Source of the DNA: a virus
Reading direction: 5' to 3' (one strand)
Virus genome (UHGV): UHGV-0377831
Length of the DNA: 32,832 bases
Shown: positions 17 through 24,923 of the stretch, piece after piece
Position numbering within the stretch: position 1 is the stretch's first letter
Layout of the letters: each line of letters starts with the position of its first letter
The notes under the pieces: generated by a model
Told to the model about the DNA's origin: nothing
Seen by the model: the letters and a program-made list of their open reading frames with translations, nothing else
The model's database searches: none
Program-made: the position numbers and the translations under genes

Positions 17-172
17 ATGAAGCAGCAAAAGGCGATGTTAATCGCCCTGATCGTCATCTGTTTAACCGTCATAGTGACGGCACTGGTAACGAGGAAAGAC
101 CTCTGCGAGGTACGAATCCGAACCGGCCAGACGGAGGTCGCTGTCTTCACAGCTTACGAACCTGAGGAGTAA
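17..172 (+). CDS. hok: Hok/Gef family type I toxin (51 aa small membrane peptide)
   Basis: ATG at 17 preceded by AAGGAG; translation MKQQKAMLIALIVICLTVIVTALVTRKDLCEVRIRTGQTEVAVFTAYEPEE matches the Hok/RelF family as I recall it. Too short to appear in the ORF track. The cognate mok and sok elements would lie mostly upstream of the window. Confidence 0.88.
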   Translation: MKQQKAMLIALIVICLTVIVTALVTRKDLCEVRIRTGQTEVAVFTAYEPEE

Positions 173-3014: not shown

Positions 3015-3090
3015 GGCCCTTTAGCTCAGTGGTGAGAGCGAGCGACTCATAATCGCCAGGTCGCTGGTTCAAATCCAGCAAGGGCCACCA
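3015..3090 (+). tRNA. tRNA with anticodon CAU, most similar to tRNA-Ile2 (ileX/ileZ type); tRNA-Met not excluded
   Basis: Cloverleaf: acceptor GGCCCTT/AAGGGCC, D-stem GCTC/GAGC, anticodon loop CTCATAA, T-loop TTCAAAT, encoded CCA. Near-identical to E. coli ileX as I recall it. Confidence 0.88.
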
Positions 3091-3097
3091 TCACATA

Positions 3098-3174
3098 CCG
3101 CCATTAGCTCATCAGGAAAGAGCGCCAGCCTTCGAAGCTGGCTGCGCGGGGTTCAAGTCCCCGATGGCGGTCCA
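3098..3174 (+). tRNA. tRNA-Arg (anticodon UCG)
   Basis: Acceptor CCGCCAT/ATGGCGG, anticodon stem CCAGC/GCTGG with loop CTTCGAA, T-arm CGGGG-TTCAAGT-CCCCG, encoded CCA. Confidence 0.85.
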
Positions 3175-3187
3175 TTATCTGCATCAT

Positions 3188-3264
3188 GCGTTGTTAGCTC
3201 AGCCGGACAGAGCAATTGCCTTCTAAGCAATCGGTCACTGGTTCGAATCCAGTACAGCGCGCCA
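3188..3264 (+). tRNA. tRNA-Arg (anticodon UCU, decodes rare AGA/AGG)
   Basis: Acceptor GCGTTGT/ACAGCGC, anticodon stem ATTGC/GCAAT with loop CTTCTAA, T-arm ACTGG-TTCGAAT-CCAGT, encoded CCA. Same Ile/Arg/Arg tRNA trio and position as in Stx-type lambdoid phages. Confidence 0.88.
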
Positions 3265-4175: not shown

Positions 4176-4511
4176 TTATGGACTTTGTTGTTTTAGCCCA
4201 TAAGGACATATTTGCAGAGTGCAACGGTTATTAAAGCATTCATTCAATACGTTATCTGTATTTGTAGGGCATTCCTGGCTGTTTTTGATTAAATTCCAGA
4301 ATGTTTTATTGAATGGTACTACGTTGTAAATGGTTACAGGTAGCACTTTGTTATTGAGCATGATACCTGTGTGAGTCAGTGTAAATATACTTTCAGGAGG
4401 TAAGAAAGCATCCGATTGATACCAGATTATTAATTTTATTTTACTCCATATGACTGAAAAAGATATTCCGCATGATGGCTGGATAACTGTATCAATCACA
4501 ATCCACTTCAT
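4176..4511 (-). CDS. Hypothetical protein, AT-rich cargo gene on the opposite strand to the late operon
   Basis: 111-aa ORF with ATG start and an AAGGAAA RBS about 6 nt upstream on the minus strand; markedly lower GC than the flanks; product not recognised. Confidence 0.5.
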
Positions 4512-5267: not shown

Positions 5268-5483
5268 ATGTACCAGATGGAAAAAATCACAACAGGTGTG
5301 TCATACACCACGTCAGCGGTGGGAACGGGCTACTGGTTCCTGCAGTTGCTGGACAGGGTTTCCCCGTCTCAGTGGGCGGCAATAGGCGTGCTGGGGAGTC
5401 TGCTGTTTGGGCTGCTGACATATCTGACTAACCTGTATTTCAAAATCAAAGAGGACCGGCGTAAGGCGGCGCGGGGAGAGTAA
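5268..5483 (+). CDS. S: Class II holin (pinholin), phage 21 S type, with dual-start motif
   Basis: [71 protein letters not shown] matches S21/Stx-phage holins; two Met codons (M1, M4) typical of holin/antiholin dual starts. The upstream extension in the ORF track (5163-5267) is probably not translated. Confidence 0.9.
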
Positions 5484-5487
5484 AGTG

Positions 5488-6378
5488 ATGAATAAAAAAT
5501 ATGAACTGGTTGTTAAGGGGATAAATAATTACGGGGATAAGGTTACTGTTACTGTGAAGCCGGAAGGTGACGGGCAAGCGTCGCTGTTGTTGCCAGATGT
5601 GGCGATTAGTCTTGACCGTACTGAAGGTGCCACGCTGGAGTTTTACGAAGCTGAGGCGAAAAAGCAGGCGAAGCAGTTTTTCATGGATGTTGCTGCCGGG
5701 TTATGTGAAGGGGATGGTCCGTTGCCGGAAAAGCGCCCCGTAATTTTAGAGGCGCAGGATGTGTTGATAACCTACAAAGGAAAGCTACCGGGAAGAATTA
5801 CTTGTTCTCTGAAGATGCCGCCGTCAACACTGCGGTCAGAAAAAGATGATGTTGAATCACGTATTGAAAAACTGGAGAGCTACGTCGTTGAGCTGAATAA
5901 GAAATGGTCGATATTGGTGCCTTCTGGCGATGAAAAGCAGTTTGCTGCGTTTGACGATTATTGTCGGAAAGTGATGAGCAGAAATCTCGCAGAGTGTTTC
6001 AGTATTCATAATGATAATTTCAGTGACCCGGAATGGGAGTGTAACCGGCCATCCTTTGTTGTATCCGGTGATGCTGGGAAAATAACCATCTCAGAAAATG
6101 GGAAAGTAACACCTCCATCGCACCAGCACAGTGAGGAGCTCATTGAATTTGCCATTGATTACCTGAAGAACAATAAAAAGCAGGGGCTGATGAAGCGCGT
6201 TGGCCGTTGCATGGGATATCTGCAGGTAGCTGCTGAGATTGAAGCGCTGGCCAGTGGTGCTGATAAGGATGCAATTGTGCGGGAGGCTCTTCTTCGTGAT
6301 TTTAATACTCCACCCTTTAAAAAAGTGCCGGCTTACTGGCTTCATCCGGGGCTGACTTATCTTAAAGTGCGTATTTAG
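5488..6378 (+). CDS. Hypothetical 296-aa soluble protein inserted between holin and endolysin
   Basis: ATG at 5488 (GTG at 5485) with a GGGGAGAG RBS 8 nt upstream; starts 4 nt after the holin stop; no signal peptide, transmembrane segment or recognisable catalytic motif; AT-rich 5' end. Confidence 0.7.
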   Translation: MNKKYELVVKGINNYGDKVTVTVKPEGDGQASLLLPDVAISLDRTEGATLEFYEAEAKKQAKQFFMDVAAGLCEGDGPLPEKRPVILEAQDVLITYKGKLPGRITCSLKMPPSTLRSEKDDVESRIEKLESYVVELNKKWSILVPSGDEKQFAAFDDYCRKVMSRNLAECFSIHNDNFSDPEWECNRPSFVVSGDAGKITISENGKVTPPSHQHSEELIEFAIDYLKNNKKQGLMKRVGRCMGYLQVAAEIEALASGADKDAIVREALLRDFNTPPFKKVPAYWLHPGLTYLKVRI

Positions 6379-6414: not shown

Positions 6415-6948
6415 ATGAACACCAAAATCAAATACGGCCTGTCGGCTGCCGTTCTGGCGCTGATTGCCGCTGGTGCGCCTGCGCCTGACATTCTCGACCA
6501 GTTTCTGGATGAAAAGGAAGGCAAGCACACCACAGCATACCGTGATGGTGCAGGTATCTGGACCATCTGCCGTGGTGCCATCATGGTGGATGGCAAACCT
6601 GTCGTTCCGGGCATGAAGTTGTCGAAGGAAAAATGCGACCAGGTTAACGCCATTGAGCGTGATAAAGCGCTGGCGTGGGTGGAGAAAAACATCAGAGTGC
6701 CGCTGACCGAACCCCAGAAAGCGGGGATCGCGTCATTCTGTCCGTACAACATTGGTCCCGGTAAGTGTTTCCCGTCGACGTTTTACAGACGAATTAATGC
6801 TGGTGATCGAAAAGGTGCCTGCGAAGCGATTCGCTGGTGGATTAAGGACGGTGGCAGAGACTGCCGTATTCGTTCAAACAACTGTTACGGTCAGGTATCC
6901 CGTCGTGACCAGGAGAGCGCGCTGGCGTGCTGGGGTATCGACAGATAA
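6415..6948 (+). CDS. R: SAR endolysin (phage lysozyme, RrrQ/YdfQ-like)
   Basis: 177-aa protein with an N-terminal signal-anchor-release segment (GLSAAVLALIAAGAPAP) and the lysozyme motif EGKHTTAYRDGAGIWTICRG; closely resembles the E. coli Qin prophage lysozyme as I recall it. Confidence 0.92.
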   Translation: MNTKIKYGLSAAVLALIAAGAPAPDILDQFLDEKEGKHTTAYRDGAGIWTICRGAIMVDGKPVVPGMKLSKEKCDQVNAIERDKALAWVEKNIRVPLTEPQKAGIASFCPYNIGPGKCFPSTFYRRINAGDRKGACEAIRWWIKDGGRDCRIRSNNCYGQVSRRDQESALACWGIDR

Positions 6949-7104: not shown

Positions 7105-7287
7105 ATGGCGAAGTGTAAACGAATTCTGTTGAGGTTGACTATGAAAAATGGCCTTGAACTGAAAGCGCCTGTAACTGATGACATCAGCAGAGCACTGGCT
7201 TTTGCCATTAAGTGGGTGGCGGTCGGTGTTGCTGTGTCCCCGATGCTGTATGGGCTGGCAAAACTGGTCATTGCGTTGAAATCGTGA
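7105..7287 (+). CDS. Small hypothetical membrane protein (60 aa)
   Basis: ATG with an AAGGGAG RBS; hydrophobic segment [27 protein letters not shown]. The ORF track starts it at an upstream GTG (7072). Confidence 0.45.
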
Positions 7288-7301: not shown

Positions 7302-7433
7302 ATGTCAGACAAACTCATAACGCTGGCGAAGATCCTCTGTGTAATTGTCGGCATTTCATTTTCACTAATGCTGGTTGCTCTTTTTCTTTCCATGGCCTGG
7401 ATGATGTTGTCTTCGTCGGGGTTGCTGGGGTGA
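7302..7433 (+). CDS. Small hypothetical single-pass membrane protein (43 aa)
   Basis: ATG at 7302 with a strong GAAGGGAGG RBS; product [43 protein letters not shown]; its stop overlaps the Rz start. Confidence 0.5.
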
Positions 7434-7903
7434 ACATAAACCGAATGCTTTCCGCGTTTATCGTTATTCTGCTGGTGGCCTGTGGTGCGCTGTGGATGGC
7501 AACAGACCATTACCGTGATAACGCGATTACCTACAAAGCGCAGCGCGATAACAAAGCCAGTGAACTGAAGCTGGCGAACGCAACCATTACTGATATGCAG
7601 GTGCGCCAGCGCGATGTTGCTGCGCTCGATGCAAAATACTCGAGGGAATTAGCCGATGCGAGAACTGAAAATGAAACTCTTCGCGCTGACGTTGCCGCTG
7701 GTCGTAAGCGCCTGCGGATCAACGCCACCTGTCCAGGCTCCGTGCGTGAAGCCCCCACCACCTCCGGCGTGGATAATGCAACCGGCCCCCAACTGGCAGA
7801 CACCGTTACACGGGATTATTTCACCCTCAGAGAGCGGCTGATGACGATGCACAAGCAACTGGAAGGGGCACAGGACTATATCCGCACTCAGTGCCTGAAA
7901 TAA
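7430..7903 (+). CDS. Rz: Spanin inner-membrane subunit Rz
   Basis: Aligns with lambda Rz ([15 protein letters not shown]..., [13 protein letters not shown]...). GTG at 7430 or ATG at 7442. Confidence 0.92.
7656..7841 (+). CDS. Rz1: Spanin outer-membrane lipoprotein subunit Rz1 (embedded in the +1 frame of Rz)
   Basis: LPLVVSAC lipobox and the proline-rich [22 protein letters not shown] motif as in lambda Rz1. Confidence 0.85.
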
Positions 7904-8214
7904 GTTTTGTTGATGCGCCGTATCGTCGCTATATTCCCTCATTAACAGAGACCGCAGCCCGACAGGGAGACTCCTCTGCGCGAGTGTGCGGGGATAATTA
8001 AAAACGATGCACACCGGGTTTTTTACCGCGTTAATGATTCGCGGGTTTATCCCGGTGCGATGGTGGAAGAAACAGGAAGCTGTATTACAGAAAGTGCTAC
8101 TACTGTATCCCGATGCGATGTATGTAATGTGAGTCAGATAATGGCACAGGATGTGGTGATGTGGCAGTCTGGAACACAGGATATATTGTCAGAATAAGAC
8201 CCGTAGGAATAAAA

Positions 8215-8541
8215 ATGAAAAGACGCCTTTTACTACTTTTTCTGTTATCTGTCCTGGCAGTGGGATGCTCGCAGCAAAAAGCTGATGAGCCCCGGCAATT
8301 AGTGACGGTGTATCCACGATATCCGGAATATGCTGCAGCAAATTATATCAAGGGGCTGGTTGAGGTTAAGTTCGATATTGGTGCTGATGGGACTGTGACA
8401 CGGATCGTTTTTCTCCGCTCAGAGCCTCATAATTTGTTTCGTGATGAAGTGGTGAAGGCCATGGCGAAATGGCGATTTGAAAAGAATCGCCCCTGTCAGG
8501 GAGTGAAGAGACAATTTATCTTTACGCCGTCACGTCCTTGA
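8215..8541 (+). CDS. Small lipoprotein with a TonB C-terminal-like domain (moron)
   Basis: Signal peptide with lipobox (MKRRLLLLFLLSVLAVGC); the remainder (YPRYPEYAAANYIKGLVEVKFDIGADGTVTRIVFLRSEPHNLFRDEVVKAMAKWRF) matches the TonB C-terminal domain pattern. Confidence 0.7.
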   Translation: MKRRLLLLFLLSVLAVGCSQQKADEPRQLVTVYPRYPEYAAANYIKGLVEVKFDIGADGTVTRIVFLRSEPHNLFRDEVVKAMAKWRFEKNRPCQGVKRQFIFTPSRP

Positions 8542-8663
8542 TGCTTCCAGGTAGAGAGGGGCTGGACGCAGGAGAAAAATGAAAGAGCCAGCGGTTATAT
8601 TTTTGTCATGGCTGACGAGGAATGATGGAAGAAGGCGTTGTATGCCACACAACGCCTCACTGT

Positions 8664-9156
8664 TCATTTCTTCTTTTTCTCTGGTGGAACCCGATGAATA
8701 AGAGTTGCACTGGTTTCCGATGAGATGGCGATATACTCGGGCAAAGTATGCTGGCAGTTTTCCAACTGGTCAAAAATACCTGCTCTCGTCTGTTGCAATG
8801 CCTGCAGCATGCGGCGGCAATGCGCCTTGCTTTTACTAACCATCTTTCCTTCCTCTATCAGTCGCTGCGTGAACTCATCATGTAATACCAGGTAAATGCG
8901 GATGTTATCGGTTTTGGCTACGCAGCATAGTACAAAACGGACAGGTGCATCCCGGGACGGGGGAGGCGTCACATGTCCCTGTGATGGTTGTTCCGGGTAA
9001 TGCACTGTGTGGGGCATAAAAATGTCCGATAATTTTACTTTCTACCGCAGTTAGTTGATTCGTTGGTCCTGGTAGCACATTGGGCGAGGATTTAAATGCC
9101 AGGCAACTGAAGGATGATGTTGCAAGGGAGATAGCGAGAATATTTCTGATTTTCAT
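8664..9156 (-). pseudogene. Possible frameshifted gene for a secreted protein near the right end (same slot as the lambda complement-strand ORF upstream of cos)
   Basis: Two overlapping minus-strand ORFs in different frames (9156-8905 with signal peptide MKIRNILAISLATSSFSCLA; 9017-8664) that would together give about 164 aa. Family assignment uncertain; could also be two genuine genes. Confidence 0.35.
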
Positions 9157-9304
9157 TTGATGATGCCTCTGTGTGAAATGACGGTAAACGACGCACTTGT
9201 GCCGGCACATAATAGCAAGCACCATAATAGATCAGATTCGATTCTTGCTGTAAGTGATAATTATTCTCGTTTTCGGGTCCTTTCCGTCGATCCAACAGGT
9301 TACG

Positions 9305-9499: not shown

Positions 9500-10009
9500 G
9501 TGGCTACGCAGACTGAAGTTGCCAGGCATTTAAGTCTGACCGATCGCCAGCTTCGCAGATTGCAGAAATTGCCGGGTGCCCCGATATCGAATAAGCGAGG
9601 GCAACTGGATCTGGATGCCTGGCGCGATTTTTACATATCGTATCTGAGAAGAAGTAAAAACGATGTGCCTGATGGCGATAGCGAAGACGACTATGAGGAG
9701 AAATTGCTTATTGCCAGATGGGAACTGACAGCAGAACAGGCTGTTACACAGCAGTTAAAAAATGAGGTGTCAAAAGGAAAACTTATTGATACCGGGTTCT
9801 GTATTTTTGCCCTCAGCAAGCTGGCAATGGCGTTATCCAGTACGCTTGATTCCATCCCTTTATCCATGCAGCGACAGTTTCCTGATTTAACACCGCGCCA
9901 TCTTGACCATCTGAAAACCCTTATTGCGAAGGGGGCAAATCAGTGTGCGCGGGCGGGGGATAAATTACCGGATTTACTCGATGAATATATCAGAGCAACA
10001 ACTGAATAA
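9500..10009 (+). CDS. nu1: Terminase small subunit Nu1
   Basis: C-terminal half aligns with lambda Nu1; GTG start at 9500 preceded by GAGGTGAGGAG; immediately downstream of cos. Confidence 0.88.
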   Translation: MATQTEVARHLSLTDRQLRRLQKLPGAPISNKRGQLDLDAWRDFYISYLRRSKNDVPDGDSEDDYEEKLLIARWELTAEQAVTQQLKNEVSKGKLIDTGFCIFALSKLAMALSSTLDSIPLSMQRQFPDLTPRHLDHLKTLIAKGANQCARAGDKLPDLLDEYIRATTE

Positions 10010-20013: not shown

Positions 20014-22567
20014 TCTTGTTATTGACCTGAGTCTGGATGCGGTCCGTTTCGATGAGCAGATGAGCCGGGTAAGGCGTCATTTTTCAGGTCTGGATACCGA
20101 CGCCAGAAAAACCGCCAGTGCTGTTGAACAGGGCCTGAGCCGCCAGGCGCTGGCTGCACAAAAAGCCGGGATTTCCGTCGGGCAGTATAAAGCGGCCATG
20201 CGAACCCTGCCCGCACAGTTTACGGATATCGCCACGCAGCTTGCCGGTGGTCAGAATCCCTGGCTGATCCTGCTGCAACAGGGCGGTCAGGTGAAGGACT
20301 CCTTCGGCGGGATGATCCCCATGTTCAGGGGGCTCGCCGGTGCGATCACCCTGCCGATGGTCGGGGTCACCTCGCTGGCGGTGGCGACAGGTGCGCTGGT
20401 GTACGCCTGGTACCAGGGAGATTCCACGCTTTCAGCGTTTAATAAAACCCTGGTTCTTTCCGGTAATCAGTCCGGACTGACTGCCGATCGTATGCTGACT
20501 CTCTCAAGAGCCGGGCAGGCAGCAGGGCTGACGTTTAACCAGGCGAGAGAGTCACTGGCAGCCCTGATGAATGCCGGTGTGCGTGGTGGTGAACAGTTTG
20601 ATGCCATCAACCAGAGTGTCGCGCGTTTTGCGTCTGCATCCGGTGTGGAGGTGGATAAAGTCGCTGAAGCCTTCGGGAAGCTGACCACTGACCCGACGTC
20701 GGGACTGATGGCGATGGCGCGCCAGTTCCGTAACGTGACGGCAGAGCAGATTGCGTATGTTGCACAGCTGCAGCGTTCCGGAGACGAGGCCGGGGCATTG
20801 CAGGCGGCGAACGATATCGCCACGAAAGGCTTTGATGAGCAGACCCGTCGCCTGAAAGAAAACATGGGAACACTGGAGACCTGGGCGGATAAAACAGGGA
20901 AGGCATTCAAATCGATGTGGGATGCCATTCTGGATATCGGTCGTCCTGAATCCTCAGCGGATATGCTCGCCAGTGCGCAGAAGGCATTTGATGAGGCGGA
21001 TAAAAAATGGCAGTGGTACCAGAGCCGGAGCCAGCGCCGGGGAAAGACCTCCTCTTTTCGTGCGAACCTTCAGGGGGCATGGGATGACCGGGAAAATGCC
21101 CGTCTGGGTCTGGCAGCGGCCACGCTGCAGTCGGATATGGAAAAAGCCGGTGAACTGGCGGCAAGGGACCGGGCTGAGCGTGAGGCGTCACAGCTGAAGT
21201 ATACCGGAGAGGCGCAGAAGGCGTATGAGCGCCTGCAGACGCCGCTGGATAAATATACCGCCCGTCAGAAAGAGCTGAATAAGGCCCTGAAAGACGGAAA
21301 AATCCTGCAGGCGGATTACAACACGCTGATGGCGTCGGCAAAAAAGGATTATGAATCGACGCTGAAAAAGCCGTCAGGTGTGAAGGTGTCTGCCGGTGAG
21401 CGCCAGGAAGACCGGGCGCATGCAGCCATGCTGGCGCTTGAAACCGAGCTCAGGACGCTGGAAAAACACAGCGGTGTGAATGAGAAAATCAGCCAGCAGC
21501 GCCGGGATTTATGGGAAGCGGAAAATCAGTATGTGGTCCTGAAAGAGGCCGCCACGAAACGGCAGTTATCTGAGCAGGAAAAATCCCTGCTGGCCCATGA
21601 GAAAGAAACGCTGGAGTACAAACGCCAGCTGGCTGAGCTGGGCGACAAGATTGAACACCAGAAACGGCTGAATGAGCTGGCACAGCAGGCGGCGCGGTTT
21701 GAACAGCAGCAGAGCGCGAAGCAGGCGGCAATCAGCGCAAAAGCCCGCGGACTCACCGACCGTCAGGCGCAGCGGGAGTCGGAAGAGCAGCGCCTTCGTG
21801 AGGTGTACGGTGATAATCCGGCTGCGCTGGCGAAGGCCACATCTGCACTGAAGAACACCTGGTCTGCGGAGGAGCAGCTTCGTGGAAGCTGGATGGCCGG
21901 GATGAAGTCCGGCTGGGGCGAGTGGGCGGAAAGTGCGACGGACAGTTTTTCGCAGGTTAAAAACGCGGCCACGCAGACCTTTGACGGTATTGCACAGAAT
22001 ATGGCAGCGATGCTGACCGGCAGTGAGCAGAACTGGCGCAGCTTCACCCGCTCCGTGCTGTCCATGATGACAGAAATTCTGCTTAAGCAGGCAATGGTGG
22101 GGATTGTCGGGAGTATCGGCAGCGCTATTGGCGGGGCTGTTGGTGGTGGCGCATCCGCGTCAGGCGGTACAGCCATTCAGGCAGCTGCGGCGAAATTCCA
22201 TTTTGCGACCGGAGGATTTACGGGAACCGGCGGCAAATATGAGCCAGCGGGGATTGTCCACCGCGGGGAGTTTGTCTTCACGAAGGAGGCAACCAGCCGG
22301 ATTGGTGTCGGGAACCTGTACCGCCTGATGCGGGGCTATGCGGAAGGGGGGTATGTGGGTGCTGCCGGAAGTCCGGCGCAGATGCGGCGGGCCGAAGGCA
22401 TTAATTTTAATCAGAACAATCACGTGGTGATTCAGAACGACGGTATCAACGGACAGGCCGGGCCGCAGCTGATGAAAGCGGTGTATGAGATGGCCCGTAA
22501 AGGTGCGCAGGATGAGCTCCGGCTGCAGTTGCGTGATGGCGGTCTGTTATCGGGGAGCGGGCGATGA
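19994..22567 (+). CDS. H: Tail tape measure protein H
   Basis: 857 aa, high identity to lambda gpH over N- and C-terminal regions (VGDLVIDLSLDA.RFDEQM.RVRRHFSG..., ...GTAIQAAAAKFHFATGGFTGTGGKYEPAGIVHRGEFVFTKEATSRIGVGNLYRLMRGYA). Confidence 0.95.
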   Translation: MSQPVGDLVIDLSLDAVRFDEQMSRVRRHFSGLDTDARKTASAVEQGLSRQALAAQKAGISVGQYKAAMRTLPAQFTDIATQLAGGQNPWLILLQQGGQVKDSFGGMIPMFRGLAGAITLPMVGVTSLAVATGALVYAWYQGDSTLSAFNKTLVLSGNQSGLTADRMLTLSRAGQAAGLTFNQARESLAALMNAGVRGGEQFDAINQSVARFASASGVEVDKVAEAFGKLTTDPTSGLMAMARQFRNVTAEQIAYVAQLQRSGDEAGALQAANDIATKGFDEQTRRLKENMGTLETWADKTGKAFKSMWDAILDIGRPESSADMLASAQKAFDEADKKWQWYQSRSQRRGKTSSFRANLQGAWDDRENARLGLAAATLQSDMEKAGELAARDRAEREASQLKYTGEAQKAYERLQTPLDKYTARQKELNKALKDGKILQADYNTLMASAKKDYESTLKKPSGVKVSAGERQEDRAHAAMLALETELRTLEKHSGVNEKISQQRRDLWEAENQYVVLKEAATKRQLSEQEKSLLAHEKETLEYKRQLAELGDKIEHQKRLNELAQQAARFEQQQSAKQAAISAKARGLTDRQAQRESEEQRLREVYGDNPAALAKATSALKNTWSAEEQLRGSWMAGMKSGWGEWAESATDSFSQVKNAATQTFDGIAQNMAAMLTGSEQNWRSFTRSVLSMMTEILLKQAMVGIVGSIGSAIGGAVGGGASASGGTAIQAAAAKFHFATGGFTGTGGKYEPAGIVHRGEFVFTKEATSRIGVGNLYRLMRGYAEGGYVGAAGSPAQMRRAEGINFNQNNHVVIQNDGINGQAGPQLMKAVYEMARKGAQDELRLQLRDGGLLSGSGR

Positions 22568-22893
22568 AAACATTTCGCTGGAAAGTGAAGCCGGATATGG
22601 AGGTGAACTCGCAGCCATCGGTGCGTGAAGTGCGTTTTGGTGACGGGTACTCACAGCGTATGGCGGCAGGGCTGAATGCTGACCTGAAAACATACAGGGT
22701 GACGCTTTCCGTGACCCGGGAGGAGGCCCGGCATCTGGAAGCGTTCCTGGCAGAGCACGGTGGCTGGAAGGCATTTTTGTGGAAGCCACCCTATGCATAC
22801 CGGCAGATAAAGGTGACCTGTGCCGGGTGGTCTGCGCGGGTCGGGATGTTGCGCGTTGAGTTCAGCGCGGAGTTTAAGCAGGTGGTGAACTGA
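22564..22893 (+). CDS. M: Minor tail protein M
   Basis: 109 aa, near-identical to lambda gpM (MKTFRWKVKP.M.V.S.PSVR.VRFGDGYSQR...). Confidence 0.95.
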   Translation: MKTFRWKVKPDMEVNSQPSVREVRFGDGYSQRMAAGLNADLKTYRVTLSVTREEARHLEAFLAEHGGWKAFLWKPPYAYRQIKVTCAGWSARVGMLRVEFSAEFKQVVN

Positions 22894-23591
22894 TGCAGGA
22901 TATTCACGAAGAAAGTCTGAACGAGTCGGTTAAGTCAGAGCAGTCACCGCGGGTGGTACTCTGGGAAATCGACCTGACGGTGCAGGGCGGTGAGCGGTAT
23001 TTTTTCTGCAATGAGCTGAATGAAAAAGGGGAGCCGGTGACCTGGCAGGGGCGTGAATATCAGGCGTACCCGATTGAGGGGAGTGGCTTTGAGATGAGCG
23101 GGAAGGGCAGCAGTGCCAGACCGTCGCTGACGGTGTCCAATCTGTTCGGTCTGGTCACCGGGATGGCGGAAGACCTGCAGAGTCTGGTGGGGGCCACGGT
23201 GGTCCGCCGCCGGGTGTATGCCCGTTTTCTGGATGCGGTGAATTTCGTTGCGGGCAATCCGGAGGCCGACCCGGAGCAGGAGCTGACGGACCGGTGGGTG
23301 GTGGAGCAGATGTCAGCGCTGACAGCCATGACGGCCTCGTTTGTGCTGGCCACACCGACCGAGACGGACGGGGCGCTGTTTCCCGGTCGTATCATGCTGG
23401 CGAACACCTGTATGTGGACCTACCGCTCTGATGAGTGTGGTTACACGGGCGGGGCTGTGGCGGATGAGTTCGATAAACCCACCACGGATATCCGTAAGGA
23501 CAGATGCAGCAAGTGCATGCGCGGGTGTGAACTGCGCAGGAATGTCGGCAATTTTGGCGGTTTCCTTTCCATTAATAAACTTTCGCAGTAA
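22893..23591 (+). CDS. L: Minor tail protein L
   Basis: 232 aa, near-identical to lambda gpL (…VVLWEIDLT..GGERYFFCNE.NEKGEPVTWQGR.YQ.YPI.GSGFE...NVGNFGGFLSINKLSQ). Confidence 0.95.
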   Translation: MQDIHEESLNESVKSEQSPRVVLWEIDLTVQGGERYFFCNELNEKGEPVTWQGREYQAYPIEGSGFEMSGKGSSARPSLTVSNLFGLVTGMAEDLQSLVGATVVRRRVYARFLDAVNFVAGNPEADPEQELTDRWVVEQMSALTAMTASFVLATPTETDGALFPGRIMLANTCMWTYRSDECGYTGGAVADEFDKPTTDIRKDRCSKCMRGCELRRNVGNFGGFLSINKLSQ

Positions 23592-23601
23592 ATCCCGGTT
23601 T

Positions 23602-24345
23602 ATGACACAGACTGAATCAGCGATTCTGGCACATGCCCGGCGGTGTGCGCCTGCGGAGTCGTGCGGCTTCGTGATAAGCACGCCGGAGGGGGAGTGGTAT
23701 ATCCCTTGTGTGAATATTTCCGCGGAGCCGGAGGCGTATTTTCGTATCGCACCGGAAGACTGGCTGCGGGCAGAGATGCAGGGGGAGATTGTGGCACTGG
23801 TCCACAGTCATCCCGGTGGGCTGCCCTGGCTGAGCGAGGCTGACCGGCGGCTGCAGATAAAAAGCGCACTGCCCTGGTGGCTGGTCTGCCGGGGTGACAT
23901 TCACAAATTCCGCTGTGTGCCACATCTGACGGGACGGCGCTTTGAGCACGGGGTGACGGACTGTTACACGCTGTTCCGGGATGCTTATCATCTGGCGGGG
24001 ACTGAAATGCCGGATTTTCATCGCGAGGATGACTGGTGGCGCAACGGCCAGAACCTTTACCTGGACAATATGGCGGTCACCGGCTTTTACCGGGTGCCCC
24101 TGTCCTCTGCACAGGCGGGCGATATTCTGCTGTGCTGCTTTGGTGCTTCGGTACCGAACCATGCCGCCATTTACTGCGGTAACGGTGAGCTGCTTCACCA
24201 TCTGCCTGAACAACTGAGTAAACGGGAGAGGTATTCCGAAAAATGGCAACGACGAACGCATTCTGTCTGGCGTCACCGCCACTGGCACGCATCTGCCTTC
24301 ACGGGGATTTACAACGATTTGGCCGCCGCCTCAGCCTGTATGTGA
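23602..24345 (+). CDS. K: Tail assembly protein K (NlpC/P60-like peptidase)
   Basis: Aligns with lambda gpK from MTQTESAILAHARRCAPAESCGFV...; the longer track ORF (from 23341) is an upstream frame extension. Confidence 0.95.
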   Translation: MTQTESAILAHARRCAPAESCGFVISTPEGEWYIPCVNISAEPEAYFRIAPEDWLRAEMQGEIVALVHSHPGGLPWLSEADRRLQIKSALPWWLVCRGDIHKFRCVPHLTGRRFEHGVTDCYTLFRDAYHLAGTEMPDFHREDDWWRNGQNLYLDNMAVTGFYRVPLSSAQAGDILLCCFGASVPNHAAIYCGNGELLHHLPEQLSKRERYSEKWQRRTHSVWRHRHWHASAFTGIYNDLAAASACM

Positions 24346-24923
24346 ACACGGCAGCGGAAGCCATTCGCGCCCTGTCGATGCAGATGCCGGGCTTTCGCCG
24401 TCAGATGAACGAAGGCTGGTACCAGATACGTATTGCCGGTGATGACACGGCACCGGAGGCGGTGTACGCCCGTCTTCACGAACAGCTGGGTGAGGGAACG
24501 GTCATCCACATTGTGCCGCGACTGGCCGGGGCCGGAAAGGGTGGACTGCAGATTGTGCTGGGGGCGGCAGCCATCGTGGGCTCTTTCTTCACTGCCGGTG
24601 CCTCGATGGCGTTATGGGGTACAGCCCTGAGTGCCGGCGGTTTTTCTGCCACCACAATGCTGTTTTCACTGGGTGCCAGCATGATACTGGGCGGTGTGGC
24701 CCAGATGCTGGCCCCGAAGGCAAAAACACCGGATTACCGCGCAACGGATAACGGCAGACAGAACACGTACTTTTCCTCGCTGGATAACATGATTGCCCAG
24801 GGGAACCCGATGCCGGTGCCTTACGGGGAAATGCTGGTTGGCTCCCGCCGTATATCCCAGGACATCAGCACCCGTGATGAAGGCGGGGGCGGAAAGGTCG
24901 TGGTTATCGGGCGGCAGGGGTAA
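24243..24923 (+). CDS. I: Tail assembly protein I
   Basis: 226 aa aligning with lambda gpI (…ARICL.GDLQRFGRR..L.V.T.AEAIRAL..Q.P.FR...); overlaps the end of K as in lambda. Confidence 0.93.
   Translation: MATTNAFCLASPPLARICLHGDLQRFGRRLSLYVNTAAEAIRALSMQMPGFRRQMNEGWYQIRIAGDDTAPEAVYARLHEQLGEGTVIHIVPRLAGAGKGGLQIVLGAAAIVGSFFTAGASMALWGTALSAGGFSATTMLFSLGASMILGGVAQMLAPKAKTPDYRATDNGRQNTYFSSLDNMIAQGNPMPVPYGEMLVGSRRISQDISTRDEGGGGKVVVIGRQG

What the first reader, a model, noticed from the sequence alone, without database searches (positions are those of the whole stretch)
8215..8541. Moron lipoprotein with a TonB C-terminal-like domain downstream of the spanin genes
A small lipoprotein whose mature part matches the TonB C-terminal domain pattern sits alone after Rz/Rz1, the slot where lambda carries the lysogenic-conversion gene bor. 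A lipoprotein carrying only a TonB C-terminal-like domain could interfere with TonB-dependent receptors (for example siderophore or vitamin B12 transporters that phages and colicins use), acting as superinfection exclusion in the way Cor lipoproteins block FhuA. This function is a hypothesis only.
Basis: partly seen in the sequence, partly recalled or inferred. Interest (0 to 1): 0.65.

Follow-up and report, generated by a model that had tools for sequence, protein, structure and literature searches.

The report
Prophage lipoprotein made of TonB's C-terminal domain
A lambda-like prophage carries a small, well conserved gene, active in the dormant prophage, for an outer-membrane lipoprotein that is just the receptor-docking domain of the host protein TonB; it probably acts as a TonB decoy, but nobody has tested what it does.

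Summary
Window 8215-8541 (+) encodes a 108-aa protein with a lipoprotein signal peptide (LAVG|C18, Ser at +2) followed by a TonB C-terminal domain. Pfam TonB_C gives E=7e-13. The alignment to E. coli TonB residues 150-230 has no gaps. The model fits TonB bound to BtuB or FhuA at about 1 Å.

It is not new as an annotation. The identical protein is in phage 21 ('TonB C-terminal domain protein'), Perceval, ev017 and others. The 1.6-kb Rz-to-Nu1 region that holds it is in 1222 of 5426 complete E. coli genomes.

It is a real gene, not a 'TonB fragment'. dN/dS is 0.12 between alleles. It belongs to a distinct lipoprotein subfamily found in Enterobacterales chromosomes and prophages. Published LF82 RNA-seq shows it transcribed in the lysogen well above the flanking late genes, at about the level of chromosomal tonB.

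In prophages it always follows the lysis cassette, but it usually sits beside bor rather than replacing it.

The decoy or exclusion function remains untested. Periplasmic TonB fragments are known to block TonB-dependent uptake, which makes it plausible. Phage 21 uses LamB, so any exclusion would act on other phages or on colicins, unlike Cor.

The parts
8215..8541 (+). CDS of the 108-aa TonB_C lipoprotein, stop codon included
   Evidence: ORF and sequence. Identical to phage 21 CPT_21_73 and to PGAP WP_000830178.1. dN/dS is 0.12 against the 72% allele.
8215..8268 (+). Lipoprotein signal peptide (residues 1-17) and the lipid-acceptor Cys18 codon (8266-8268); Ser at +2
   Evidence: Read directly from the sequence. 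Cys18 is invariant in the 13-member lipoprotein alignment. No member has Asp at +2.
8311..8511 (+). TonB_C domain (residues 33-99 by Pfam; the folded region is about residues 28-103)
   Evidence: Pfam E=7.3e-13. PDB alignment to TonB 150-230. Model and Foldseek match.
8205..8208 (+). Shine-Dalgarno AGGA, 6 nt before the ATG
   Evidence: Sequence. Phage 21 annotates a ribosome-binding site at the equivalent place.
7914..8214 (+). Conserved upstream part of the module. It must hold the gene's own promoter (inferred, not located). It contains the small ORF 8060-8197 (45 aa, = CPT_21_72).
   Evidence: 98.6% identical to phage 21 from window 7914 onward. The gene is transcribed independently of Rz in LF82. 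The simple scan found no near-consensus sigma-70 site on the + strand.
8579..8701 (+). Small conserved ORF (40 aa, = CPT_21_74), function unknown
8664..8843 (-). 59-aa ORF on the opposite strand (phrog_4843; PGAP hypothetical WP_000253883.1)
   Evidence: PHROG E=3e-46. PGAP annotation. Present in the allele-1 loci that extend far enough downstream.
7430..7903 (+). Rz i-spanin with the embedded Rz1 o-spanin (7656-7841): the upstream context, a complete spanin pair
   Evidence: PF03245 E=4.5e-47 and PF06085 E=4.4e-20. phrog_13 and phrog_3198.
9275..9304 (+). cosQ and the right cohesive end of the phage 21-type genome. The gene is therefore the last sizeable gene before cos and Nu1 (9500-10009).
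   Evidence: Mapped from the phage 21 record. Nu1 Pfam match.

Best explanation
The gene encodes a small lipoprotein. [quoted passage not shown] A linker of about 10-13 residues tethers a complete TonB C-terminal domain there. The protein has no TonB transmembrane anchor, no proline-rich rod and no way to couple to ExbB/ExbD. It can therefore dock but cannot transduce energy. The most likely mechanism is a dominant-negative TonB mimic. It would bind, by beta-strand augmentation on its beta3 edge, the TonB boxes exposed at the periplasmic face of TonB-dependent transporters, or the TonB boxes of imported group B colicins. That would keep energised TonB from engaging them. The lysogen would become less sensitive to agents that need TonB: T1- and phi80-type phages, group B colicins and TonB-dependent microcins. 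The cost would be some loss of siderophore and B12 uptake. Shown here: the domain identity, the lipoprotein signal, purifying selection, the conserved position after the lysis cassette, and (from published RNA-seq) expression in the lysogen. Inferred: lipidation and outer-membrane location, TonB-box binding, and every phenotype. Confidence in the identity is about 0.95. The confidence given below is for the mechanism.
For: The best structural matches include TonB as it sits on BtuB and FhuA.

Residues I recall as important for TonB C-terminal function are retained in the gapless alignment (offset +127): Y36=Y163, P37=P164, F53=F180, G59=G186, F75=F202, W86=W213, F88=Y215, F103=F230.

The beta3 strand is present (model strand E94-103). 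The protein ends 5 residues after it, so the segment equivalent to TonB 236-239 is missing.

Lipobox Cys18 is invariant and no family member has Asp at +2.

There is precedent for a dominant-negative effect. Overexpressed periplasmic TonB domain inhibits TonB-dependent iron import (Howard et al. 2001). A TonB-box pentapeptide reduces colicin killing and phi80 infection (Tuckman and Osburne 1992). Both are as cited in PMC9841981.

There is also precedent for a phage lipoprotein of the inner leaflet of the outer membrane acting on the periplasmic face of a TonB-dependent transporter: T5 Llp on FhuA.

The gene is functional. dN/dS is 0.11-0.13 between the 72%-identical alleles, and the six other DNA variants of allele 1 differ from the window only by synonymous changes.

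It is expressed in the lysogen. LF82_160 reads log2(FPKM+5) 5.0-6.6 in all five conditions, against 2.3-3.7 for Rz and 2.3-4.3 for the small terminase. Chromosomal tonB reads 4.2-7.2 in the same table, so the mimic's mRNA is of the same order as tonB's.

The 1.6-kb Rz-to-Nu1 region that holds the gene is widespread: 1222 of 5426 complete E. coli genomes.
Against: No binding or phenotype data exist for this protein or any relative (ten literature searches).

Two TonB positions implicated in TonB-box and receptor contacts differ: Q160 is Tyr, and R166 is Tyr in most enterobacterial members of the lipoprotein subfamily. Specificity may therefore differ from TonB's.

TonB-dependent transporters usually outnumber TonB (established knowledge). 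A decoy made at about tonB's mRNA level might not saturate them.

A general TonB-minus phenotype should be costly in iron-poor hosts, yet the gene is common in pathogenic and commensal E. coli.

Most distant relatives sit in ordinary chromosomal neighbourhoods (next to lacZ/lacI in Raoultella and Klebsiella, and others). That suggests a cellular role that need not be anti-phage.

Phage 21 uses LamB, so the gene cannot serve self-exclusion as Cor and Llp do.

There is no match in PADLOC.

The N-terminal tether points the domain's N-terminus towards the outer membrane, whereas in TonB it leads away from it. Whether the docking geometry is still possible was not modelled.
Confidence: 0.4

Rival explanations
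1. The TonB-like domain binds a different partner. Candidates are peptidoglycan, another outer-membrane or periplasmic protein, or ExbD. The family would then have a housekeeping or envelope-modulating role in Enterobacterales that prophages merely borrowed as a fitness moron, unrelated to blocking TonB boxes.
For: Relatives at 31-47% identity are lipoproteins in chromosomal, non-phage contexts in Raoultella, Klebsiella, Serratia, Erwinia, Pantoea and Pseudescherichia. The subfamily clusters apart from true TonBs and has its own conserved signature: Tyr in place of R166, and SEPxHLFD in place of SAQPANMFE. In Raoultella it is adjacent to a DUF1440 membrane protein, and a homologue of that protein is also carried by the Klebsiella phage that has the lipoprotein.
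Against: The core and the beta3 edge of the TonB box-binding fold are fully retained. No alternative ligand is suggested by any data. A short tether at the outer membrane places the domain exactly where TonB boxes emerge.
Confidence: 0.3
2. The same decoy chemistry applies, but the selected benefit is physiological rather than defensive. The protein would throttle or re-route iron uptake, for example by limiting siderophore-linked toxicity or signalling. This would fit with the TonB-independent SitABCD Fe/Mn importer carried by the same phages.
For: All six distinct phages in the phage collection that carry the identical allele (21, Perceval, ev017, PhiR47_2, PhiR57_1, PhiR63_2) also carry sitABCD. 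Both are expressed as morons in LF82.
Against: These six phages are close relatives, so the association may be by descent. The window-type prophage in strain Eco889 ends without sit. The 72% allele phages (JLK-2012, Lys8385Vzw, Stx1a phages) are not among the sit carriers. About 16 sit-carrying phages lack the TonB_C gene.
Confidence: 0.15
3. It is a lysis protein, a spanin-like or spanin-accessory lipoprotein, as the PHROG label 'Rz-like spanin' implies.
For: Full-length match to phrog_1267, which is labelled Rz-like spanin (E=5e-43). The gene always lies directly downstream of the lysis cassette, on the same strand, in E. coli, Klebsiella and Serratia prophages. No terminator-like site separates it from Rz, so the late transcript should also include it.
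Against: The phage already has a complete Rz/Rz1 pair. The protein is a globular TonB fold, not a short proline-rich o-spanin. It is transcribed in lysogens when Rz is not. Chromosomal relatives have no lysis genes nearby. The PHROG label is most simply an annotation transfer based on 'lipoprotein next to Rz'.
Confidence: 0.05
4. It is a decaying fragment of a captured tonB gene with no function. This is what database names such as 'TonB fragment', 'partial tonB-like membrane protein' and 'truncated' suggest.
For: The names given in several records.
Against: dN/dS is about 0.12 across alleles whose dS exceeds 1.3, and only synonymous variation is seen within the main allele. The protein has a purpose-built lipoprotein signal with an invariant Cys. 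It is only about 40% identical to E. coli TonB, and a conserved subfamily spans several genera. It is transcribed in the lysogen.
Confidence: 0.02

Closest known systems
C-terminal domain of E. coli TonB (residues about 150-239; PDB 1U07, 1XX3, 2GSK with BtuB, 2GRX with FhuA)
   Same: Same fold, with a gapless alignment over 81 residues at about 40% identity. The YP motif, the conserved glycines and all five C-terminal aromatic positions are retained.
   Different: It has no N-terminal transmembrane anchor and no proline-rich spacer, so it has no link to ExbB/ExbD and the proton-motive force. It is anchored instead by a predicted lipid to the outer membrane. Q160 and R166 are both replaced by Tyr. 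It lacks the last 4 residues. NCBIfam TonB equivalog scores (45-69 bits) are far below the cutoffs (265-448).
Engineered periplasmic TonB fragments (Howard et al. 2001, as cited in PMC9841981)
   Same: They are also a TonB periplasmic or C-terminal domain present in the periplasm without the energy-coupling N-terminus. Overexpression inhibits TonB-dependent iron import. This is the direct experimental precedent for a decoy.
   Different: Those fragments are soluble, laboratory-made and overexpressed. This protein is natural, lipid-anchored at the outer membrane, diverged in sequence and expressed at a modest level.
Llp of phage T5 and Cor of phi80/N15/HK022 (superinfection-exclusion lipoproteins)
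   Same: They are small phage-encoded lipoproteins of the inner leaflet of the outer membrane. They act on the periplasmic face of a TonB-dependent transporter (FhuA) and block phages, colicin M and ferrichrome uptake.
   Different: The fold is unrelated: Llp and Cor form their own family, and this protein hits only TonB_C. Llp and Cor are specific for FhuA and protect against the phage's own receptor class. Phage 21 uses LamB, so any exclusion here would be against other phage types and potentially across all TonB-dependent transporters.
Bor/Iss lipoprotein of lambda
   Same: It is a lysogen-expressed lipoprotein moron in the region between Rz and cos.
   Different: There is no sequence similarity. 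Bor is on the opposite strand and has its own regulation: it is strongly induced in DMEM and macrophages, while the TonB_C gene is roughly constant. The two genes co-occur in most carriers.

Membership tests
TonB_C domain family (Pfam PF03544 / TIGR01352) | Profile match above the curated threshold | tested here: met
   PF03544 scores 49.2 bits against 24.6. TIGR01352 scores 47.4 against 27.1.
TonB_C domain family (Pfam PF03544 / TIGR01352) | [quoted passage not shown] | tested here: met
   The model (pLDDT 88) matches 2gsk_B at TM 0.92 and rmsd 1.0 Å, and 2grx_C at TM 0.92 and 0.9 Å. The alignment used for the model included true TonBs.
TonB_C domain family (Pfam PF03544 / TIGR01352) | Conserved YP motif and aromatic cluster (TonB Y163, F180, F202, W213, Y215, F230; the list of important residues is from my own knowledge) | tested here: met
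   Y36, F53, F75, W86, F88 and F103 align to these positions.
TonB energy transducer (full-length TonB; NCBIfam PRK10819 equivalogs) | N-terminal inner-membrane anchor that couples to ExbB/ExbD, plus a proline-rich periplasmic spacer | tested here: not met
   The protein has 108 aa. Its N-terminus is a cleavable lipoprotein signal, and only about 10-13 residues separate Cys18 from the domain. Equivalog scores of 45-69 bits fall far below the cutoffs of 265-448.
TonB energy transducer (full-length TonB; NCBIfam PRK10819 equivalogs) | Binds the TonB box of transporters | not testable with these tools
   The beta3 edge strand is retained. Binding needs a complex model or an experiment.
Bacterial lipoproteins (signal peptidase II substrates) | Basic n-region, hydrophobic h-region and a lipobox ending in Cys | tested here: met
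   The sequence is MKRR-LLLLFLLSVL-AVG-C18. Cys18 is invariant in the 13-sequence alignment. Lipoboxes are present in 12 further relatives from genomes.
Bacterial lipoproteins (signal peptidase II substrates) | Actual lipidation and outer-membrane sorting | not testable with these tools
   Ser at +2, with no Asp, predicts Lol-dependent outer-membrane sorting by the +2 rule. This is inference only.
Cor/Llp superinfection-exclusion lipoproteins | Sequence or fold membership in the Cor/Llp family | tested here: not met
   The only Pfam hit is TonB_C. The structural neighbours are TonB and TolA domains. Llp and Cor share a different fold.
Cor/Llp superinfection-exclusion lipoproteins | Carried by phages that use the receptor the protein blocks (FhuA) | tested here: not met
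   Phage 21, with the identical gene, uses LamB. The window's J receptor-binding domain is 66% identical to that of phage 21.
Cor/Llp superinfection-exclusion lipoproteins | Blocks phage adsorption or infection and transport through the target receptor | not testable with these tools
   No experimental data were found.
o-spanins (Rz1-like) / PHROG 1267 'Rz-like spanin' | Partner of an i-spanin and needed to complete the spanin pair; a short, proline-rich mature lipoprotein | tested here: not met
   A bona fide Rz1 is embedded in Rz (PF06085 E=4.4e-20). This protein is a globular 10-kDa TonB fold. It matches phrog_1267 as a sequence cluster, but the functional label is not supported.
Morons (independently transcribed prophage cargo genes) | Transcribed in the lysogen independently of neighbouring phage genes | tested here: met
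   Published RNA-seq of LF82: the identical gene LF82_160 is 8-fold above the Perceval background and 4- to 16-fold above Rz and terminase in all conditions. The promoter itself was not located.

The most novel reading that the evidence does not exclude
The protein is a natural, phage-borne TonB mimic that locks the TonB boxes of many or all TonB-dependent transporters from the outer-membrane side. With one small protein it would give the lysogen broad protection against TonB-dependent phages, group B colicins and microcins. This would be a pan-receptor exclusion and immunity mechanism distinct from the receptor-specific Cor/Llp type. In phage 21-type phages it might be buffered by the TonB-independent SitABCD iron/manganese importer carried on the same genome. 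Its chromosomal relatives would then be endogenous brakes on TonB-dependent transport.
Probability: 0.3. Interest if true: 0.75.

Novelty: new variant of a known kind. Interest (0 to 1): 0.5.

Why it matters
TonB-dependent transporters are the entry gates for many phages, colicins, microcins and siderophore-antibiotic conjugates. A natural, lipid-anchored TonB mimic would be a simple, transferable way to shut these gates. It sits in a classical phage (21), and the 1.6-kb region that holds it is in about a fifth of complete E. coli genomes, including AIEC and EHEC prophages. If it works as a decoy, it would affect phage-therapy host ranges, bacteriocin ecology in the gut and sensitivity to 'Trojan horse' antibiotics. 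It would also give structural biologists a ready-made high-occupancy TonB-box binder. It would further correct misleading annotations ('TonB fragment', 'Rz-like spanin'). If it does not act as a decoy, the family still marks an uncharacterised conserved lipoprotein of Enterobacterales.

Tried and rejected
1. A single-sequence AlphaFold model was poor (pLDDT 51). I replaced it with an alignment-based model.

2. The simple promoter scan found no near-consensus sigma-70 site on the + strand upstream of the gene, and no terminator between Rz and the gene. By eye I found only weak candidates, so the promoter is left unlocated.

3. PADLOC defence models gave no hit for the gene or its small neighbours.

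4. Ten literature searches found no functional study. Howard et al. 2001 is not held in the library, so it is cited second-hand from PMC9841981.

5. The search for related loci with the 13-sequence alignment failed on genome contigs because no stretch was conserved enough. I re-ran it with a 6-sequence alignment.

6. I considered that the svsR sRNA of NC-SV-like prophages might lie in this module. It lies at cI instead.

7. I considered homotypic exclusion as for Cor. It is rejected for phage 21, which uses LamB.

8. I considered a strict functional link to sitABCD. It does not hold for the window-type prophage or for the second allele.

9. I rejected the 'pseudogene or fragment' reading on the basis of dN/dS.

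Full report
**1. What is there**

ATG 8215 is preceded by AGGA 6 nt upstream, and the stop codon ends at 8541.

The 108-aa product starts MKRR-LLLLFLLSVL-AVG-C18-SQQ. This is a basic n-region, a hydrophobic core and a lipobox, with Ser at +2.

Residues 33-99 match Pfam TonB_C at E=7.3e-13, which is 49.2 bits against a gathering score of 24.6. They also match TIGR01352.

phmmer against PDB sequences aligns residues 23-103 without a single gap to E. coli TonB residues 150-230, at E about 1e-14 and roughly 40% identity.

A single-sequence AlphaFold model was poor. With a 26-sequence alignment the model reached pLDDT 88. Foldseek then placed it on TonB C-terminal domains, including TonB bound to BtuB (2gsk_B, rmsd 1.0 Å) and to FhuA (2grx_C, 0.9 Å).

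Full-length TonB equivalog models score far below their cutoffs. The protein has no membrane anchor and no proline-rich spacer. It is a TonB C-terminal domain on a lipoprotein signal and nothing else.

**2. Surroundings**

The window is a lambda-like prophage. It holds a Q antiterminator, three tRNAs, a holin, an R lysozyme (6415-6948), Rz with embedded Rz1 (7430-7903), then this gene. After it come cos (about 9304), Nu1 and terminase, head and tail genes, J, lom and stf.

From window position 7914 to cos the DNA is 98.6% identical to the right end of phage 21. The protein is 100% identical to phage 21 CPT_21_73, annotated 'TonB C-terminal domain protein'. It is also identical to proteins of Perceval ('TonB fragment'), ev017, PhiR47_2, PhiR57_1 and PhiR63_2.

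A second allele, 72% identical, is in JLK-2012, Lys8385Vzw and several Stx1a phages. A 41% relative is in Klebsiella phage ST13-OXA48phi12.4.

The 1.6-kb Rz-to-Nu1 region is found at 80% coverage or more in 1222 of 5426 complete E. coli genomes, where PGAP calls the product 'TonB family protein'.

**3. Position relative to bor**

In 80 IMG/VR loci the gene always lies downstream of lysozyme-Rz/Rz1, on the same strand, and upstream of the terminase genes. This holds with two different terminase types.

In phage 21, Perceval and 35 of 55 allele-1 loci where Rz is visible, bor lies on the opposite strand between Rz and this gene. The gene is an additional cargo gene next to bor, not an alternative occupant of bor's slot. 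The window simply lacks bor.

**4. Is it a live gene?**

Yes. Between the two E. coli alleles dN=0.18 and dS=1.4-1.6, giving dN/dS of 0.11-0.13. The six other DNA variants of the main allele differ from the window only by synonymous changes.

An exhaustive HMMER search of 1.8 billion representative proteins found a set of short proteins of 100-135 aa. They align over the whole length, signal peptide included, and most have lipoboxes.

A scan of species-representative genomes found lipobox-bearing relatives in Raoultella, Klebsiella, Serratia, Erwinia, Pantoea and Pseudescherichia.

A pooled Pfam scan of 105 neighbouring ORFs showed mostly ordinary chromosomal genes among the commonest families (lacZ and lacI in Raoultella and Klebsiella, NhaB, SpoVR and others) and no phage lysis families among them. 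One Serratia locus is again a prophage, with a lysozyme 67% identical to the window's directly upstream.

In a neighbour-joining tree of the domain, the lipoproteins group apart from true TonBs (no bootstrap was run). They share their own signature: Tyr where TonB has R166, and SEPxHLFD where TonBs have SAQPANMFE.

The database names 'fragment', 'partial' and 'truncated' are therefore misleading. This is a distinct lipoprotein subfamily with chromosomal and prophage-borne members. The prophage-borne members have repeatedly settled just after the lysis cassette.

**5. Expression**

A simple scan found no near-consensus sigma-70 promoter upstream and no terminator between Rz and the gene. By position, the Q-dependent late transcript should include it.

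Published RNA-seq of E. coli LF82 lists the identical gene (LF82_160, Perceval) as a moron, 8-fold above the prophage background in LB (PMC9928086).

The supplementary tables give log2(FPKM+5) of 5.0-6.6 in LB, in two further bacteria-only culture conditions (probably DMEM at 1 h and 6 h) and in macrophages. In the same tables Rz reads 2.3-3.7 and the small terminase 2.3-4.3. There is no significant change in macrophages. Chromosomal tonB reads 4.2-7.2.

The gene therefore has its own promoter, is expressed constitutively in the lysogen, and has mRNA of the same order as tonB's. GC content of the module (45-48%) is slightly below that of the lysis genes (52-58%).

**6. Mechanism**

The anatomy suggests a TonB mimic that cannot be energised. 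It has an outer-membrane lipid anchor: Cys18 is invariant, and Ser, Thr or Ala is found at +2 throughout the family. A linker of 10-13 residues follows, then a complete TonB docking domain.

That domain retains the YP motif, the conserved glycines and all five aromatic positions of the TonB C-terminus (the list of functionally important residues is from my own knowledge). It also retains the beta3 edge strand that pairs with TonB boxes in 2GRX and 2GSK (for the pairing; for the strand). The chain stops 5 residues after beta3.

There is experimental precedent. Overexpressed periplasmic TonB domain inhibits TonB-dependent iron import. A TonB-box pentapeptide reduces phi80 infection and colicin killing (both cited in PMC9841981). 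T5 Llp shows that a phage lipoprotein in the inner leaflet of the outer membrane can act on the periplasmic face of a TonB-dependent transporter.

I therefore rate a TonB-box decoy as the single most likely mechanism, at about 0.4. Its likely benefit is reduced sensitivity to TonB-dependent phages, group B colicins and microcins.

Several points count against it:
- There are no data of any kind on this family.
- Q160 and R166 are replaced.
- Transporters normally outnumber TonB.
- A TonB-minus phenotype has a cost.
- The many chromosomal relatives suggest a cellular role.
- Phage 21 uses LamB, so exclusion would act on other phage types, unlike Cor and Llp.

**7. Rivals**

- A different binding partner, or a housekeeping envelope role: 0.3.
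- The same decoy chemistry selected for iron physiology, possibly with SitABCD: 0.15. All six phages with the identical allele carry sitABCD, but the window-type prophage and the second allele do not.
- A lysis or spanin role, as the PHROG label implies: 0.05. It is contradicted by the complete Rz/Rz1 pair, the globular fold and expression in the lysogen.
- A dead fragment: 0.02. It is refuted by the selection analysis.

**8. Verdict**

The gene is already annotated and already listed as a moron, so the novelty lies only in the unexplored function. It is a natural TonB C-terminal domain moved to the outer membrane. It is a cheap and well-defined experimental target in a classical phage.

Noticed in passing
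L101:8968-11001 (phage 21 record 21967-24502); phage records listed: All six distinct phages in the collection that carry the identical TonB_C lipoprotein (21, Perceval, ev017, PhiR47_2, PhiR57_1, PhiR63_2) also carry the sitABCD Fe/Mn ABC importer. About 16 other sit-carrying lambdoid phages lack the TonB_C gene. The window-type prophage in strain Eco889 has no sit. This could be a functional pairing (TonB-independent metal supply) or just shared descent.
   Followed up: partly
window 5485-6378 (+): A 297-aa ORF lies between the holin (5268-5483) and the lysozyme. Its first ~100 residues match DUF1327 (YdfR family). In strain Eco889, PGAP calls this region an incomplete YdfR-family pseudogene. 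It is an unusually large insert inside a lysis cassette.
   Followed up: no
window 7105-7287 and 7302-7433 (+): Two small ORFs sit between the lysozyme and Rz. PGAP annotates both as hypothetical proteins. The second (43 aa) looks like a single-pass membrane peptide. Extra genes inside the R-Rz junction are not usual for lambda-type cassettes.
   Followed up: no
window 8215-8541; PHROG phrog_1267: The PHROG family that contains this protein is labelled 'Rz-like spanin' (E=5e-43, full length). The members scanned here are TonB_C lipoproteins. The label is probably an annotation artefact that will spread to phage genome annotations.
   Followed up: partly
L086:6738-7298, L087:6727-7287; L004:232-858: In Raoultella the chromosomal TonB_C lipoprotein is directly followed by a DUF1440 membrane protein. 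A 61%-identical DUF1440 protein is also carried, upstream of the lysis genes, by the Klebsiella phage that carries a TonB_C lipoprotein. The two genes may be functionally linked or may have been captured together.
   Followed up: no
window 4176-4511 (-), 3015-3264 (+), about 17-172 (+): There is other cargo in the late-regulatory region: an IraM-like anti-adapter gene on the opposite strand, three tRNA genes (CAT anticodon called Met by ARAGORN and Ile by PGAP, Arg-TCG, Arg-TCT) just downstream of Q, and a hokD toxin gene at the window's left edge.
   Followed up: no
window 8497-8499 (Cys95 codon) and its equivalents in relatives: The mature protein has a second cysteine (RPC95QG). It is kept in the main 72% allele but replaced by Arg in several close variants (P0004, P0010, L063) and is absent from distant relatives. 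It is therefore unlikely to form an essential disulfide, unlike the Cys pair of Llp.
   Followed up: partly
PMC9928086 supplementary tables (Perceval region): bor, next to the TonB_C gene in Perceval, rises from log2 about 4 in LB to about 8 in the bacteria-only cultures and about 11 in macrophages. The TonB_C gene stays at 5-6.6. The two adjacent lipoprotein morons are therefore regulated differently.
   Followed up: partly
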